From the UHGV virus genome UHGV-1483955: a DNA stretch of 64,000 nucleotides, one strand, 5' to 3'. Positions 34,720 to 37,088 of the stretch are shown one piece after another; within the stretch, counting starts at the first letter, position 1; every line of letters starts with the position of its first letter. Under the pieces are notes generated by a model. The model saw nothing but the letters and a program-made list of their open reading frames with translations. It was not told where the DNA came from and ran no database searches. The position numbers and the translations under genes are program-made. Origin of the DNA: a virus.

Positions 34720-36090
34720 GTGCTAATGTCTGCATCCCCTCTTGAATCCATGCCAAATTCCCTTAGTGCAGAACAAGCTGTACTTGGTGGCTTAATGCTT
34801 GATAACTGCCGCTGGGATGAAGTTGCAGATCGTATAGTTGCTGATGATTTTTATACCAGTGCTCATCGTGAAATTTTCAGTGAGATGGAGAGGTTATTAA
34901 GTCATGGCAAACCGATTGATTTGATAACACTTGCTGAAGCACTTGAACAGAACGGTAAATTAGAACGCGCCGGTGGTTTTGCGTACCTTGCGGAGATGTC
35001 AAAGAACACGCCCAGCGCGGCAAATATTTGTGCTTATGCGGATATCGTTCGTGAACGCGCGGTTGTTCGTGAAATGATTTCCGTCGCAAATGAAATAGCC
35101 GAAGCTGGATATGCGCAGGATGGCAGGGGCAGCAATGAATTGCTGGATATGGCCGAGCGCCGCGTTTTTGAAATAGCTGAAAAACGACAAAAGAGCGGTA
35201 GTGGTCCAAAAGATATCGCCAGCATTCTCGATGCAACGGTATCTCGCATAGAAGAGTTGTTTCAGCGACCACATGATGGTGTAACGGGGCTTGATACGGG
35301 ATTTACCGATATCAATAAGAAGACGGCAGGGCTTCAGCCGTCCGATCTCATCATTGTCGCCGCCCGCCCATCTATGGGGAAGACCACGTTTGCGATGAAT
35401 CTCGTCGAAAATGCCGCAGTTCGTAACGATAAGCCCGTATTGGTTTTTAGCCTTGAGATGCCGAGCCACCAGCTGATGATGCGCTCACTGGCTTCTCTTG
35501 CACGCGTTGATCAGACTCGTATTCGGACAGGGCAACTTAACGACGAGGATTGGGCGCGGGTTTCTGGCGCAATGGGTATTCTGTTGGACAAGCAGAATAT
35601 TTTTATTGATGACTCAAGCGCCCTGACACCTACAGAGCTTCGTTCCCGCGCTCGTCGTGTTTATAAAGAAAATGGTGGTTTGAGCATGATTATGATCGAC
35701 TACCTGCAACTTATGCGCGTCCCCGAGCTGCAAGATAACCGAACGCTGGAAATTGCCGAGATTTCTCGCTCACTGAAGGCGTTGGCGAAGGAATTACAAG
35801 TACCGGTGGTGGCATTGTCACAACTTAATCGATCGCTTGAACAGCGTGCGGACAAACGACCGGTAAATTCAGATTTACGTGAATCAGGAGCAATTGAGCA
35901 GGACGCAGACCTGATCATGTTTCTGTATCGCGACGAAGTTTATCACCCGGATAGCGAAATGAAGGGCATTGCCGAGGTAATTATCGGAAAGCAACGAAAT
36001 GGCCCAATTGGCACGGTGAGATTGGCTTTTAACGGCCAATACTCACGGTTTGATAACTATGCTGGTGCTGACTGGCAAGAGGATTATTAA
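34720..36090 (+). CDS. ban: DnaB-family replicative helicase (P1 Ban-like)
   Basis: 456 aa; Walker A ARPSMGKTTFAMNL, DnaB helicase motifs (IDYLQLM, SQLNRSLEQR, ESGAIEQDADLIMFLYRDE). Confidence 0.9.
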   Translation: MLMSASPLESMPNSLSAEQAVLGGLMLDNCRWDEVADRIVADDFYTSAHREIFSEMERLLSHGKPIDLITLAEALEQNGKLERAGGFAYLAEMSKNTPSAANICAYADIVRERAVVREMISVANEIAEAGYAQDGRGSNELLDMAERRVFEIAEKRQKSGSGPKDIASILDATVSRIEELFQRPHDGVTGLDTGFTDINKKTAGLQPSDLIIVAARPSMGKTTFAMNLVENAAVRNDKPVLVFSLEMPSHQLMMRSLASLARVDQTRIRTGQLNDEDWARVSGAMGILLDKQNIFIDDSSALTPTELRSRARRVYKENGGLSMIMIDYLQLMRVPELQDNRTLEIAEISRSLKALAKELQVPVVALSQLNRSLEQRADKRPVNSDLRESGAIEQDADLIMFLYRDEVYHPDSEMKGIAEVIIGKQRNGPIGTVRLAFNGQYSRFDNYAGADWQEDY

Positions 36091-37088
36091 TGCAATGGAA
36101 TGAGGAAAAGCCGATGAACATCCTGATCATTGGGCGAAAATTTGAAGCTATCAGTGATGTGAAAACATATACGGAAATGTGGGCTTATAACCTGGCCTGC
36201 GCCTTTAGTGAGGCAGGGGTAACATTGCAATACCATCGTCCATATTCCCCTGGCGTCGAAAGCCCGGAGGATTATGTTGAAGCTGTGTTGACTGCTGCGA
36301 CCGCATGTTCTGCGAAGGCCATTTTGGCACCAGGATTGAGGTATTTTACTACGGTACCCAGGGAAATAGGCATGCAACTGTGTCGCCGATTCTCTGGATG
36401 GGTAGCCCAGGTATATGACGGTTCTATGCTGGATTCGGCACCAGTCGATATTACTTTTACTGTCCGCGATGATACCTGGCGGTACCTGGATAATCCCGGC
36501 AGGTTAGAGCGTCATAATCGTTTTAACAAACATGTTGGATGGGCAGCGAATCAGGAGCTGTTCCATCTGGAAACCCAAACGGACGATGTTCTGCGTATTT
36601 TTGTAGACCACGCTGCATTTGATGTTAGTGGTTTTGATCACTCCTTAAGTATCCTTATGAACCTTCAGCGTCTGACCGTTCCGTATGAGGCCAGAACGTT
36701 GACTGATGACGGATTGGTTACCATTGATCCGGGGAATATTTCGGTAACTCCATACAGGCGGACGCCGGTGCCAGCAACCGAATTTGCAGCTGAATTGCGT
36801 AAGAGTGACGTGTTTATCGTTACGCATCCCGAAAGCCTTGGATTAACTGTACTTGAGGCGGCAATGTGCGGGGCGTTGGTATTAACGCCTCCCGATTGCC
36901 TTCCGCCAGATCGCTTGGCTTTGGTGAACCATATGGTTATCAAGTCGCGGATTGATTGGGATGAGGTTATTGCTCGCGTTGATCGCGTGAAAAATGCTGA
37001 AAAGGTCCAGTGTCACACCTGGTCGGCAATTGCGGAAAAGATGCTTGAGACGTTTATCACGCAGAAACCGTCGTGCGGTAACGGATAA
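36090..37088 (+). CDS. GT-B-fold glycosyltransferase (family 4-like); likely start at ATG ~36114
   Basis: C-terminal motif THPESLGLTVLEAAMCGALVLT (E-x7-E type). Confidence 0.55.
   Translation: MQWNEEKPMNILIIGRKFEAISDVKTYTEMWAYNLACAFSEAGVTLQYHRPYSPGVESPEDYVEAVLTAATACSAKAILAPGLRYFTTVPREIGMQLCRRFSGWVAQVYDGSMLDSAPVDITFTVRDDTWRYLDNPGRLERHNRFNKHVGWAANQELFHLETQTDDVLRIFVDHAAFDVSGFDHSLSILMNLQRLTVPYEARTLTDDGLVTIDPGNISVTPYRRTPVPATEFAAELRKSDVFIVTHPESLGLTVLEAAMCGALVLTPPDCLPPDRLALVNHMVIKSRIDWDEVIARVDRVKNAEKVQCHTWSAIAEKMLETFITQKPSCGNG

What the first reader, a model, noticed from the sequence alone, without database searches (positions are those of the whole stretch)
36090..37088. GT4-like glycosyltransferase immediately downstream of the replicative helicase
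A GT-B-fold glycosyltransferase co-transcribed with ban is unexpected for a replication operon. It could modify host surface polysaccharide (lysogenic conversion or exclusion) or glycosylate DNA or a protein.
Basis: partly seen in the sequence, partly recalled or inferred. Interest (0 to 1): 0.4.

Follow-up and report, generated by a model that had tools for sequence, protein, structure and literature searches.

The report
P1 dbn: stray glycosyltransferase-cassette gene
The gene after the phage P1 helicase gene is dbn, long annotated as a possible sugar-transferring enzyme, and in other phages it sits inside a cassette with three more such enzymes that P1 also carries 6 kb away, so it probably builds a sugar chain rather than helping replication.

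Summary
The window is a P1-type phage-plasmid (99% identical to P1), and ORF 36090-37088 is P1 dbn (P7 glt). GenBank has called it a "possible glycosyltransferase" for years, so the fold call is not new.

I confirmed it. A confident AlphaFold model (pLDDT 89) is a two-domain GT-B fold whose best solved matches are GT4 enzymes. The EX7E motif (E248, E256) is conserved. By sequence, however, Dbn belongs to a small separate family and misses Pfam's cut-off (25.0 against 26.4 bits).

The link to ban is specific to the P1 lineage. In two cultured coliphages and three metagenomic phage contigs, Dbn homologues lie contiguous with homologues of P1's PmgO, PmgP and PmgQ. PmgO and PmgP are WaaZ/sialyltransferase-like; PmgQ is GT8-like. 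Two further contigs pair a Dbn homologue with some of these genes. In P1, ppp sits where dbn lies in most of those cassettes. In bacteria, Dbn homologues sit next to WaaZ-like genes in kps-type capsule clusters.

Best reading: dbn is a displaced accessory member of a phage glycan-building cassette active in lytic growth. The acceptor is unknown; the candidates are LPS core or another lipid-linked glycan, or virion proteins. DNA is unlikely. All four genes are dispensable in the laboratory.

The parts
36090..37088 (+). dbn ORF as annotated in P1 (332 aa plus stop): GT-B fold, GT4-like glycosyltransferase
   Evidence: ORF. 99% identical to P1 dbn. PHROG 2518, E 1.8e-239. AF2 pLDDT 89. Foldseek top hits are GT4 enzymes.
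36114..36116 (+). Second in-frame ATG (M9), probably the real start codon
   Evidence: Most non-P1 homologues (11 of 15 full-length) start at the residue aligned with M9. In P1-like variants L081, L082 and L090, homology to this window begins just before this ATG and a different gene lies upstream. A GAGGA motif at 36102-36106 lies 7 nt upstream.
36079..36083 (+). GAGGA Shine-Dalgarno-like motif 6 nt before the annotated ATG at 36090
   Evidence: Read directly from the sequence.
36606..36611 (+). Codons for D173-H174, invariant in 71 of 71 family members, at the first strand of the C-terminal Rossmann domain
   Evidence: Alignment A2 and column counts. Strand E168-172 in the model.
36831..36857 (+). 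Codons for the EX7E motif (E248-S-L-G-L-T-V-L-E256), the GT4 nucleotide-sugar-binding signature
   Evidence: E256 is in 71 of 71 and E248 in 70 of 71 family members. The family profile aligns this stretch with the same motif region of solved GT4 enzymes 3c4q/3c48 (weak, E about 0.4) and with putative glycosyltransferase 8xsg (E 9.8e-5).
37109..37135 (.). 11-bp GC-rich hairpin with U runs on both strands: bidirectional intrinsic terminator between dbn (+) and gene 5 (-)
   Evidence: RNA fold gives -17.6 kcal/mol, z -4.1 on + and -18.1 kcal/mol, z -2.6 on -. Sequence.
34720..36090 (+). ban, DnaB-type replicative helicase; its stop overlaps the annotated dbn ATG
   Evidence: Pfam DnaB_C E 1.7e-107 and DnaB N-terminal domain E 2.7e-35. 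P1 annotation.
31525..31552 (.). Bivalent C1 repressor operator (Oban / Op72) at the head of the operon that ends with ban and dbn
   Evidence: A perfect and a 2-mismatch match to ATTGCTCTAATAAATTT on opposite strands. The window has 13 matches against 0.31 expected. P1 annotation.
37135..37767 (-). Gene 5 (baseplate hub), convergent with dbn; marks the end of the + strand unit
   Evidence: ORF. Pfam Phage_base_V, weak. P1 annotation.
42866..42882 (-). C1 operator (Oppp / Op83) ahead of pmgN-pmgO-pmgP-ppp-pmgQ
   Evidence: 3-mismatch operator match. P1 annotation.
43023..43685 (+). pmgO: MptE-like / sialyltransferase-like / WaaZ-like protein; cassette partner of Dbn
   Evidence: PHROG 4603 'alpha-2,3-sialyltransferase', E 4e-74. 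Pfam MptE-like 23.4 bits, below cut-off. Profile versus E. coli waa proteins: best hit WaaZ, E 3.9e-4. Next to Dbn homologues in L004, L091, L093, L301 and L304.
43583..44209 (+). pmgP: paralogue of pmgO and the most conserved cassette member
   Evidence: PHROG 2111, E 2.7e-132. AF2 pLDDT 92. Fold matches MptE HPPK 8sd5 (E 8e-4) and Cst-I/Cst-II sialyltransferases (E about 1e-2). Profile hits WaaZ, E 1.7e-5.
44191..44883 (+). ppp (Metallophos phosphatase): in P1 it lies between pmgP and pmgQ, where dbn lies in the contiguous cassettes (next to pmgP in four of the five, next to pmgQ in all five)
   Evidence: Pfam Metallophos, E 9e-16. Gene orders in L093, L301 and L304 are O-P-Dbn-Q.
44880..45581 (+). 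pmgQ: GT8-like GT-A glycosyltransferase with invariant D79-L-D81-T and H208-G-x-P-R-P motifs; cassette partner of Dbn
   Evidence: Alignment A3. Profile hits PDB GT8 enzymes 6mw5 (E 2.3e-6), 5gvv and glycogenin. PHROG 1962 'glycosyltransferase'. Hits WaaJ at E 3.4e-7.

Best explanation
The ORF is phage P1 dbn. It encodes a protein with no predicted signal peptide or membrane segment noted in the model (not formally tested), about 324-332 aa long, with a GT-B fold and a GT4-type EX7E sugar-nucleotide site. It most likely transfers a sugar from a host nucleotide-sugar with retention of configuration.

Dbn is not a replication function. It is an accessory member of a phage glycan-building cassette whose core is PmgO + PmgP + PmgQ. 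PmgO and PmgP are two WaaZ/sialyltransferase-like paralogues, possibly using CMP-Kdo. PmgQ is a GT8-like alpha-hexosyltransferase. In several other phages the four genes are contiguous. In the P1 lineage dbn has been moved to the end of the C1-repressed ban operon, and ppp lies between pmgP and pmgQ.

The enzymes would act one after another in the cytoplasm during lytic growth and assemble a short glycan containing Kdo and hexose. What is shown: the fold, the motifs, the conserved gene linkage, the operators and dispensability. What is inferred: the donors, the order of action and the acceptor.

My leading guess for the acceptor is nascent lipid A-core or another Kdo-bearing lipid-linked glycan at the inner membrane (about 35-40%). 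Virion proteins come next (about 30%).
For: Identity and fold:
- The region is 99% identical to P1, where the ORF is annotated dbn, 'possible glycosyltransferase'.
- The AF2 model has pLDDT 89. Its best PDB matches are GT4-type GT-B enzymes.
- E248 is in 70 of 71 and E256 in 71 of 71 family members, and the motif aligns with the same motif region of solved GT4 enzymes, weakly.

Cassette linkage:
- EP_H11 and IME392 (cultured coliphages): PmgO-PmgP-Dbn-PmgQ contiguous.
- L093: O-P-Dbn-Q. L091: O-P-x-Dbn-Q. Both are lambda-like contigs.
- L004: P-Dbn-Q-O.
- L294: Dbn-Q-FkbM methyltransferase. L300: Q-methyltransferase-sulfotransferase-GT25-GT32-like-x-Dbn-FkbM methyltransferase-MptE-like.
- The O-P-Q core without Dbn is in four further prophages, which carry other accessory genes such as a methyltransferase or a sulfotransferase.

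Bacterial context. In three kps-type clusters the Dbn homologue directly follows a WaaZ-like gene: Colwellia, Brucella pseudogrignonensis and metagenomic contig L290. Those neighbours hit E. coli WaaZ at E 2e-9 to 9e-6.

Partner enzymes:
- PmgQ is GT8-like.
- PmgP and PmgO have an MptE/Cst-II-like fold and hit WaaZ. WaaZ is a Kdo transferase (PMC8151780).

Regulation. C1 operators head both P1 operons.
Against: - No biochemical or genetic phenotype is known. In-frame deletions of dbn, pmgO, pmgP and pmgQ plaque normally, and CRISPRi scores all four as nonessential (PMC9024508, PMC10695390).
- The similarity of PmgO and PmgP to WaaZ, MptE and Cst-II is weak. Pfam scores are below cut-off, Foldseek E is 1e-3 to 1e-2 with TM 0.4-0.5, and the WaaZ E-values come from a 14-protein database. 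The fold also includes pyrophosphokinases, so PmgO and PmgP may not be glycosyltransferases.
- Dbn lacks the usual N-terminal GT4 sequence features. Its family profile does not reach mainstream GT4: only 376 hits among 1.84 billion representatives.
- The linkage rests on about a dozen loci. IMG/VR holds essentially only P1-type copies.
- Late expression leaves little time to remodel surface LPS, and phages with protein receptors carry the cassette too.
Confidence: 0.6

Rival explanations
1. The cassette, including Dbn, glycosylates phage structural proteins (capsid, tail or fibres) as they are made late in infection. This would give a glycan coat on the virion, as in some mycobacteriophages and giant viruses.
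For: - In two HK97-type prophages the O-P-Q core is inserted directly after the major capsid gene and before the head-tail connector genes (L174, L177).
- In lambdoid phages it lies in the late operon just before the terminase genes.
- The PmgQ profile's best solved relatives are GT8 enzymes that glycosylate proteins: Skp1 alpha-galactosyltransferase, GlyE and glycogenin.
- Accessory sugar methyl- and sulfotransferases suggest an exposed, decorated glycan.
- Dbn's best viral structural match is a Tupanvirus glycosyltransferase (TM 0.76-0.80, E 4e-18).
- From general knowledge, the MptE-like family includes the Maf flagellin glycosyltransferases.
Against: - The main text of the P1 virion proteome paper does not mention glycosylation (PMC9024508).
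- The carrier phages have unrelated capsid families (HK97-type, lambda E-type, P1 gp23), so there is no common target.
- Deletions have no plaquing defect.
- In P1, dbn is in an early C1-controlled operon, not a late one.
- Kdo on proteins has no precedent that I know of.
Confidence: 0.3
2. Dbn glycosylates phage DNA, as T4 alpha/beta-glucosyltransferases or the phage HY126 glycosyltransferase do, to evade restriction.
For: - Phage DNA glycosyltransferases also have a GT-B fold.
- The HY126 glycosyltransferase (9ir0) ranks fifth among the fold matches (E 6e-8). HY126 is among the phages whose DNA carries arabosylated 5-hydroxycytosine (PMC13326640); that 9ir0 is the DNA-acting enzyme is my inference.
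- dbn lies in an operon with a replication gene, just after the DNA methyltransferase gene dmt.
Against: - That match (TM 0.55) is no better than matches to many ordinary GT4 enzymes.
- From general knowledge, P1 has no known hydroxylated or hydroxymethylated base pathway and its DNA is cut by common restriction enzymes.
- Deleting dbn or pmgO/P/Q does not change antirestriction (PMC9024508).
- The partner genes are LPS/capsule-type transferases and sugar methyl- or sulfotransferases.
- Bacterial homologues lie in capsule clusters.
Confidence: 0.05
3. Dbn is a stand-alone lysogenic-conversion or exclusion enzyme. It would be expressed in the prophage from its own promoter inside ban and would alter host LPS or another surface glycan independently of PmgO/P/Q.
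For: - The P1 record lists two predicted sigma-70 promoters inside ban, and my scan finds one of them at 35453-35480.
- From general knowledge, the P1 receptor is the LPS core glucose, so core modification would exclude superinfection.
- The gene is kept intact in 477 E. coli genomes carried as plasmid prophages.
Against: - The promoter-like site is the only one found where shuffled sequence gives 7.1 on average, so it is not evidence.
- The conserved physical linkage with PmgO/P/Q in unrelated phages argues for joint action.
- There is no membrane segment and no flippase partner of the Gtr type.
- No serotype or LPS change has been reported for P1 lysogens, to my knowledge.
Confidence: 0.1

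Closest known systems
GT4 retaining GT-B glycosyltransferases (for example PimA, MshA, BshA, GlgM, WaaG)
   Same: Two Rossmann-like domains with a C-terminal helix crossing back. The EX7E motif lies in the C-terminal domain. These enzymes are the best structural matches.
   Different: - Dbn is shorter (324-332 aa).
- Sequence similarity is confined to about 40-90 residues around EX7E.
- The Pfam score is below the curated cut-off, and NCBIfam has no match.
- The family has its own invariant residues (D110, W151, D173-H174, H246).
- Its profile does not retrieve mainstream GT4.
E. coli waa (LPS core) enzyme set: WaaZ (Kdo III transferase), WaaJ/WaaO (GT8), WaaG/WaaB (GT4)
   Same: The phage cassette holds the same three enzyme kinds. 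The PmgP and PmgO profiles pick out WaaZ, and the PmgQ profile picks out WaaJ and WaaO, from the 14 waa proteins.
   Different: - The similarities are remote. Dbn against WaaG is not significant (E 0.085).
- The phage proteins are much smaller.
- There are no heptosyltransferases, kinases or ligase.
- No action on LPS has been shown.
ABC-transporter-dependent (kps-type) capsule clusters that hold a WaaZ-like gene next to a Dbn-like gene
   Same: These hold true Dbn-family members at 34-52% identity, each directly after a WaaZ-like gene: Colwellia MAG, Brucella pseudogrignonensis chromosome 3 and contig L290.
   Different: The bacterial clusters carry exporters (ABC2_membrane, ABC_tran, Poly_export, Wzz-like), a large GT4 and two unknown proteins of about 320 aa. 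They have no PmgQ-type GT8. The phages carry no exporter.
Virion glycosylation genes of mycobacteriophages and giant viruses
   Same: These are virus-encoded sets of several glycosyltransferases, sometimes with methyltransferases, expressed with structural genes. A Tupanvirus glycosyltransferase is Dbn's best viral structural match.
   Different: The enzyme families and hosts differ. Glycosylated virions have not been shown for P1 or for any carrier of this cassette.
Phage DNA glycosyltransferases (T4 alpha/beta-glucosyltransferases; phage HY126 glycosyltransferase, PDB 9ir0)
   Same: GT-B fold, phage-encoded, and nonessential in permissive hosts.
   Different: - P1 has no pathway for a modified base to serve as acceptor.
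- There is no specific similarity beyond the fold.
- The genomic partners are glycan-type enzymes.
Serotype-converting GtrABC systems of temperate phages
   Same: Both are prophage-borne sugar transferases proposed to change host surface glycans.
   Different: From general knowledge, Gtr systems use a membrane GT2 (GtrB), a flippase and a periplasmic-facing GtrC, and they are expressed in lysogens. Dbn and PmgO/P/Q show no membrane features in the analyses done here (not formally tested), have GT-B, GT8 or MptE-like folds, and sit in C1-repressed operons.

Membership tests
GT4 / Pfam Glycos_transf_1 (PF00534) | GT-B architecture: two Rossmann-like domains and a C-terminal helix returning to the N-terminal domain | tested here: met
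   AF2 model with pLDDT 89.2 and pTM 0.86, and its secondary-structure order. 84 PDB matches at E<=1e-3, led by GT4 enzymes.
GT4 / Pfam Glycos_transf_1 (PF00534) | EX7E motif in the C-terminal domain | tested here: met
   E248-x7-E256. E248 is in 70 of 71 and E256 in 71 of 71 family members. The family profile aligns the motif with the same region of solved GT4 enzymes 3c4q/3c48 (E about 0.4) and of putative glycosyltransferase 8xsg (E 9.8e-5).
GT4 / Pfam Glycos_transf_1 (PF00534) | Score at or above the curated family threshold | tested here: not met
   25.0 bits against the gathering score of 26.4, matching only profile positions 83-169 of 172. The 98%-identical cluster representative P0001 carries a precomputed PF00534 hit. 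NCBIfam has none.
GT4 / Pfam Glycos_transf_1 (PF00534) | Canonical N-terminal glycine-rich loop and the Arg/Lys pair that binds the donor phosphates | tested here: inconclusive
   By sequence, the family instead has invariant D173-H174 at the first C-domain strand and D110 after the fourth N-domain strand. I could not superpose coordinates on a liganded GT4 structure.
GT4 / Pfam Glycos_transf_1 (PF00534) | Retaining transfer from an NDP-sugar | not testable with these tools
   Needs an enzyme assay.
Phage PmgO-PmgP-(Dbn)-PmgQ glycan cassette (defined here) | The Dbn-family gene is contiguous with, or in the same element as, PmgO-, PmgP- and PmgQ-family genes | tested here: met
   - Contiguous in EP_H11, IME392, L093, L091 and L004.
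- Partial sets in L294 and L300.
- Same element but split in this window, L003 and L092.

Phage PmgO-PmgP-(Dbn)-PmgQ glycan cassette (defined here) | The members act on one common substrate or pathway | not testable with these tools
   Inferred from the conserved linkage only.
Phage DNA glycosyltransferases | The same phage has a pathway that makes a hydroxylated or hydroxymethylated base as acceptor | not tested
   I did not screen the whole window for such enzymes. From general knowledge, P1 has none. The deletions do not change antirestriction.
WaaZ-type Kdo transferases (for the partners PmgO and PmgP) | Significant sequence or fold similarity to WaaZ or to MptE-like/GT42-like enzymes | tested here: inconclusive
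   - Pfam MptE-like 23.4 and 20.9 bits against a cut-off of 34.6.
- Foldseek: 8sd5 at E 8e-4 and Cst-I/Cst-II at about 1e-2, TM 0.42-0.52.
- Profiles against 14 waa proteins: WaaZ at E 1.7e-5 and 3.9e-4.
GT8 (for the partner PmgQ) | GT-A DxD motif and profile similarity to GT8 enzymes | tested here: met
   - D79-L-D81-T and H208-G-x-P-R-P are invariant in 28 sequences.
- PDB GT8 hits: 6mw5 at E 2.3e-6 and 5gvv at 3.8e-3.
- Pfam Glyco_transf_8 is matched by only 8 of 28 members, weakly.

The most novel reading that the evidence does not exclude
P1 and many phages of Gammaproteobacteria carry a self-contained glycosylation cassette: two WaaZ-like transferases, a GT8, and optionally Dbn or sugar methyl- or sulfotransferases. 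Using host CMP-Kdo and UDP-hexoses, it would put a Kdo-containing glycan on virion proteins. That would be the first glycosylated virions among classical coliphages and the first protein-linked Kdo.
Probability: 0.15. Interest if true: 0.8.

Novelty: new member of a known kind. Interest (0 to 1): 0.45.

Why it matters
P1 is a model phage. P1-type plasmid prophages sit in about 9% of complete E. coli genomes. Yet dbn and the pmgO/P/Q genes have had no function for twenty years.

Seeing them as one conserved cassette of four predicted sugar-transferring enzymes turns four orphan genes into a single testable pathway. The deletion mutants already exist.

If the target is LPS, the cassette would be a lytic-cycle mechanism that remodels the phage receptor or the outer membrane. 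If the target is the virion, it would extend phage glycan coats to Gram-negative hosts, which bears on phage therapy and on immune recognition of phages.

The result also corrects the impression that the gene belongs to the replication machinery.

Tried and rejected
- Single-sequence and profile searches of Dbn against PDB sequences gave only weak matches: the EX7E stretch and a Rossmann-type match to KtrA.
- NCBIfam and PADLOC gave nothing for Dbn, PmgO, PmgP or PmgQ.
- The PmgP profile against PDB sequences gave nothing useful.
- Three IMG/VR scans returned almost only P1-type copies, so they added no diversity.
- The genome-contig scan gave only 3 loci. The broad alignment A2 was too divergent to seed a scan.
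- The ~520-630-aa proteins that carry a Dbn-like domain showed only methyltransferase or weak hydrolase additions, which was not informative.
- Direct BLASTP of PmgO against the Brucella MptE-like protein, and my first pairing of PmgO and PmgP with the L004 neighbours, were not significant because I had paired the wrong genes. An all-against-all BLAST resolved this.
- The Pfam hint of a sugar nucleotidyltransferase in the extra L091 gene is too weak to use (E 0.019).
- Rfam found only the three tRNAs between dmt and gene 5.
- The P1 genome paper (PMC523184) is not held.
- Literature searches found no paper linking dbn to pmgO/P/Q, or DUF115 or WaaZ to phages.
- I considered a tRNA-modifying role, because dbn shares an operon with three tRNA genes. 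I dropped it because the linkage to the tRNA genes is specific to P1.
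Full report
**What is at the coordinates.** The window is a P1-type phage-plasmid. 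Bases 34500-37800 are 99.1-99.2% identical to phage P1 over their full length and 97.9% identical to P7. ORF 36090-37088 (+), 332 codons, is P1 dbn ("downstream of ban"). The RefSeq record annotates it as "function unknown, possible glycosyltransferase". P7 calls it glt, and RCS47 calls it a family 4 glycosyltransferase.

The gene upstream (34720-36090) is ban, a DnaB-type helicase (Pfam DnaB_C, E 1.7e-107). The gene downstream on the other strand is baseplate gene 5.

**Is it a real glycosyltransferase fold?**
- Sequence evidence alone is thin. Pfam Glycos_transf_1 matches only residues 229-315, at 25.0 bits against a curated cut-off of 26.4. PHROG 2518 has unknown function. NCBIfam has no match.
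- An AlphaFold2 model built from 18 homologues is confident (pLDDT 89.2, pTM 0.86). It shows two Rossmann-like domains and a C-terminal helix.
- Foldseek against the PDB gives 84 matches at E<=1e-3. The top ones are GT4-type GT-B enzymes: GlgM, tetrahydrobiopterin glucosyltransferase, tll1591, BshA, BA1558 and PimB' (E 6e-9 to 3e-7, TM 0.52-0.65).
- The GT4 signature E-x7-E is present. E248 is conserved in 70 of 71 and E256 in 71 of 71 family members. The family profile aligns it with the same motif region of solved GT4 enzymes, though weakly.
- The family is nonetheless small and distinct. A profile search of 1.84 billion representative proteins found only 376 at E<=1e-3. The family has its own invariant residues: D173-H174, H246, D110 and W151.

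I therefore call it "GT-B, GT4-like". I do not call it a clear GT4 member.

**Gene boundaries and transcription.**
- The annotated ATG at 36090 overlaps the ban stop (TAATG) and has a GAGGA 6 nt upstream. A second ATG at 36114 (M9) has a GAGGA 7 nt upstream.
- Most non-P1 homologues start at the M9 position.
- In some P1-like elements (L081, L082, L090) a 101-aa gene (PHROG 12809) lies between ban and dbn, and homology to this window starts just before the M9 ATG. M9 is therefore probably the real start, and the ban/dbn junction is a mosaic joint.
- An 11-bp hairpin with U tracts on both strands (37109-37135; -17.6 kcal/mol, z -4.1) ends the unit.
- A perfect bivalent C1 operator lies at 31525-31552, at the head of the operon. 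Nothing convincing separates ban from dbn.
- Co-transcription is plausible but untested. The single promoter-like site inside ban (35453-35480) is fewer than chance would give.

**Where the gene really belongs.** I retrieved genomic contexts of Dbn homologues and compared every ORF with the window's ORFs.

| Source | Gene order or context |
|---|---|
| Coliphage EP_H11 (cultured) | PmgO-PmgP-Dbn-PmgQ, overlapping and contiguous |
| Coliphage IME392 (cultured) | PmgO-PmgP-Dbn-PmgQ, contiguous |
| L093 (lambda-like contig) | O-P-Dbn-Q, just before the terminase genes |
| L091 (lambda-like contig) | O-P-x-Dbn-Q, just before the terminase genes |
| L004 (metagenomic contig) | P-Dbn-Q-O |
| L294 | Dbn-Q-FkbM methyltransferase, followed by a tail protein |
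| L300 | Q-methyltransferase-sulfotransferase-GT25-GT32-like-x-Dbn-FkbM methyltransferase-MptE-like |

Starting instead from PmgP homologues, four more prophages have the O-P-Q core without Dbn: Pseudomonas, a Citrobacter rodentium-type lambdoid, Alloalcanivorax and Gilvimarinus. Two of these carry another accessory, a methyltransferase or a sulfotransferase. The core lies either right after the major capsid gene or between the lysis genes and terminase.

In this window the partners are pmgO (43023-43685), pmgP (43583-44209) and pmgQ (44880-45581), about 6 kb from dbn. The phosphatase gene ppp (44191-44883) lies between pmgP and pmgQ, which is where dbn lies in most of the contiguous cassettes. 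Two related phage-plasmids (L003, L092) also have dbn apart from O-P-Q, and in them dbn is not next to a helicase. The ban-dbn adjacency is therefore a rearrangement specific to the P1 lineage, not a functional pairing.

**What the partners are.**
- PmgQ has invariant D-L-D-T and H-G-x-P-R-P motifs. Its profile hits solved GT8 enzymes: Skp1 alpha-galactosyltransferase at E 2.3e-6, GlyE and glycogenin. PHROG calls it a glycosyltransferase.
- PmgO is PHROG 4603, "alpha-2,3-sialyltransferase". PmgP is the related PHROG 2111. Both hit Pfam MptE-like below the cut-off.
- A confident PmgP model (pLDDT 92) matches archaeal MptE pyrophosphokinase (E 8e-4) and the Cst-I/Cst-II sialyltransferases (about 1e-2), with modest TM scores.
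- Against the 14 proteins of the E. coli K-12 waa locus, the PmgP and PmgO profiles single out WaaZ (E 1.7e-5 and 3.9e-4). PmgQ singles out WaaJ and WaaO. Dbn is not significantly similar to WaaG.
- WaaZ is the transferase that adds the third Kdo to the LPS inner core (PMC8151780).

**Bacterial relatives.** In a Colwellia MAG, in Brucella pseudogrignonensis chromosome 3 and in metagenomic contig L290, a Dbn homologue (34-52% identical) directly follows a WaaZ-like gene. That neighbour is 24-27% identical to E. coli WaaZ (E 2e-9 to 9e-6). The pair lies inside a kps-type cluster with ABC-2 transporter genes, Poly_export, a Wzz-like protein, a large GT4 and conserved unknown proteins of about 320 aa. 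This shows what chemistry the Dbn family works in: cytoplasmic assembly of an acidic polysaccharide, probably containing Kdo, alongside a WaaZ-like enzyme.

**Mechanism.**
- Shown: the fold, the motifs, the conserved linkage, C1 operators ahead of both P1 operons, and dispensability. In-frame deletions of dbn, pmgO, pmgP and pmgQ plaque normally and keep normal antirestriction (PMC9024508). CRISPRi scores all four genes as nonessential (PMC10695390).
- Inferred: the four enzymes act in sequence in the infected cell and use host nucleotide-sugars, because the cassette has no sugar-activation genes. To my knowledge CMP-Kdo is the only CMP-sugar available in K-12. They would build a short Kdo/hexose glycan.
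- The acceptor is open.
  - For an LPS-core or lipid-linked acceptor: the WaaZ/WaaJ resemblance, the capsule-cluster relatives, and a distribution restricted to Gammaproteobacteria among the named PmgP homologues.
  - For virion proteins: late-operon placement next to capsid and terminase genes, PmgQ's relatives being GT8 enzymes that modify proteins, the methyl- and sulfo-decorating accessories, and Dbn's best viral structural match being a Tupanvirus glycosyltransferase.
  - Against DNA: the partner enzymes and the antirestriction data. The match to the phage HY126 glycosyltransferase is no better than matches to ordinary GT4 enzymes.
- My rough odds are 35-40% LPS or lipid-linked glycan, 30% virion proteins, 5% DNA, and the remainder other targets.

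**Novelty and verdict.** The ORF and its putative fold are already annotated, so the finding as written is not new. In the held literature I could not find the linkage of dbn to pmgO/P/Q as one conserved cassette of four predicted transferases spread across unrelated phages. That linkage explains why a sugar transferase sits "in a replication operon": it arrived there by rearrangement. I file it as a new, uncharacterised family member of known kinds, namely GT-B glycosyltransferases and phage glycosylation gene sets. Interest is moderate, because it gives a concrete, testable pathway in a model phage for which the mutants already exist.

Noticed in passing
window 32400-34720: Between tRNA-Thr and the third tRNA this element differs from reference P1. 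It has a small membrane protein (33292-33528) and an SPFH/Band 7 lipoprotein (33509-34336; Pfam Band_7, E 1e-30) on the + strand, where P1 has plp/upl and tciA-C. The same arrangement is in RCS47 and vB_EcoM-813R1 (99-99.9% identity).
   Followed up: partly
L081 7699-8004 (also L082, L090); corresponds to the window junction at 36090-36113: Some P1-like elements carry an extra 101-aa gene (PHROG 12809, unknown function) between ban and dbn. dbn then starts at the codon equivalent to M9. The junction is a recombination joint.
   Followed up: partly
window 34364-34439: ARAGORN and Rfam call this a tRNA-Met (CAT anticodon). The P1 record annotates the equivalent gene as tRNA-Ile2 (lysidine type). 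Three tRNA genes (Asn, Thr and this one) share the C1-controlled operon with ban and dbn.
   Followed up: no
window 31715-31737: A strong terminator-like hairpin (GCCCATC-TTCG-GGTGGGC followed by T7) lies about 170 nt after the Oban operator, inside what P1 annotates as a 'dicF-like region'. Rfam reports no family there at gathering threshold.
   Followed up: partly
window 45583-45599 and 45632-45648; also 47724-47740: Further C1-operator-like sites lie between pmgQ and pmgR and after pap. The late pmg region is therefore cut into several C1-controlled units. The window has 13 operator matches against 0.31 expected.
   Followed up: no
window 48651-49529: A 292-aa protein in the same late region has a PAPS-reductase domain (E 2.8e-9). 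Cassette variants in other phages carry sulfotransferases (L177 8579-9193, L300 1655-2257). A possible link to sulfur or PAPS chemistry was not examined.
   Followed up: no
window 43583-43685: pmgO and pmgP overlap by about 100 nt in different frames. In other phages the equivalent overlap is 11-94 nt. The pmgO and pmgP starts may need revising.
   Followed up: no
L302 5590-7248 (Stenotrophomonas jumbo phage RAS14; also CM1): A 552-aa protein in two 319-kb jumbo phages contains a Dbn-family domain (profile E 9e-74). No PmgO/P/Q-type genes were detected within 6 kb.
   Followed up: partly
L005 7384-8702 (Colwellia MAG): The Colwellia Dbn homologue is called as only 233 aa and lacks about 100 N-terminal residues. 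Small ORFs of 110 and 63 aa lie just upstream. It may be a split or degraded gene, or an assembly error.
   Followed up: no
L093 2612-3271 and L175 9197-9838; L091 9435-10004 and L174 9254-9835: Two further small protein families recur right beside the cassette in unrelated phages. One is PHROG 1924, 'minor tail protein'. The other has no family match apart from a very weak sugar-nucleotidyltransferase hint. They may be additional cassette members.
   Followed up: partly
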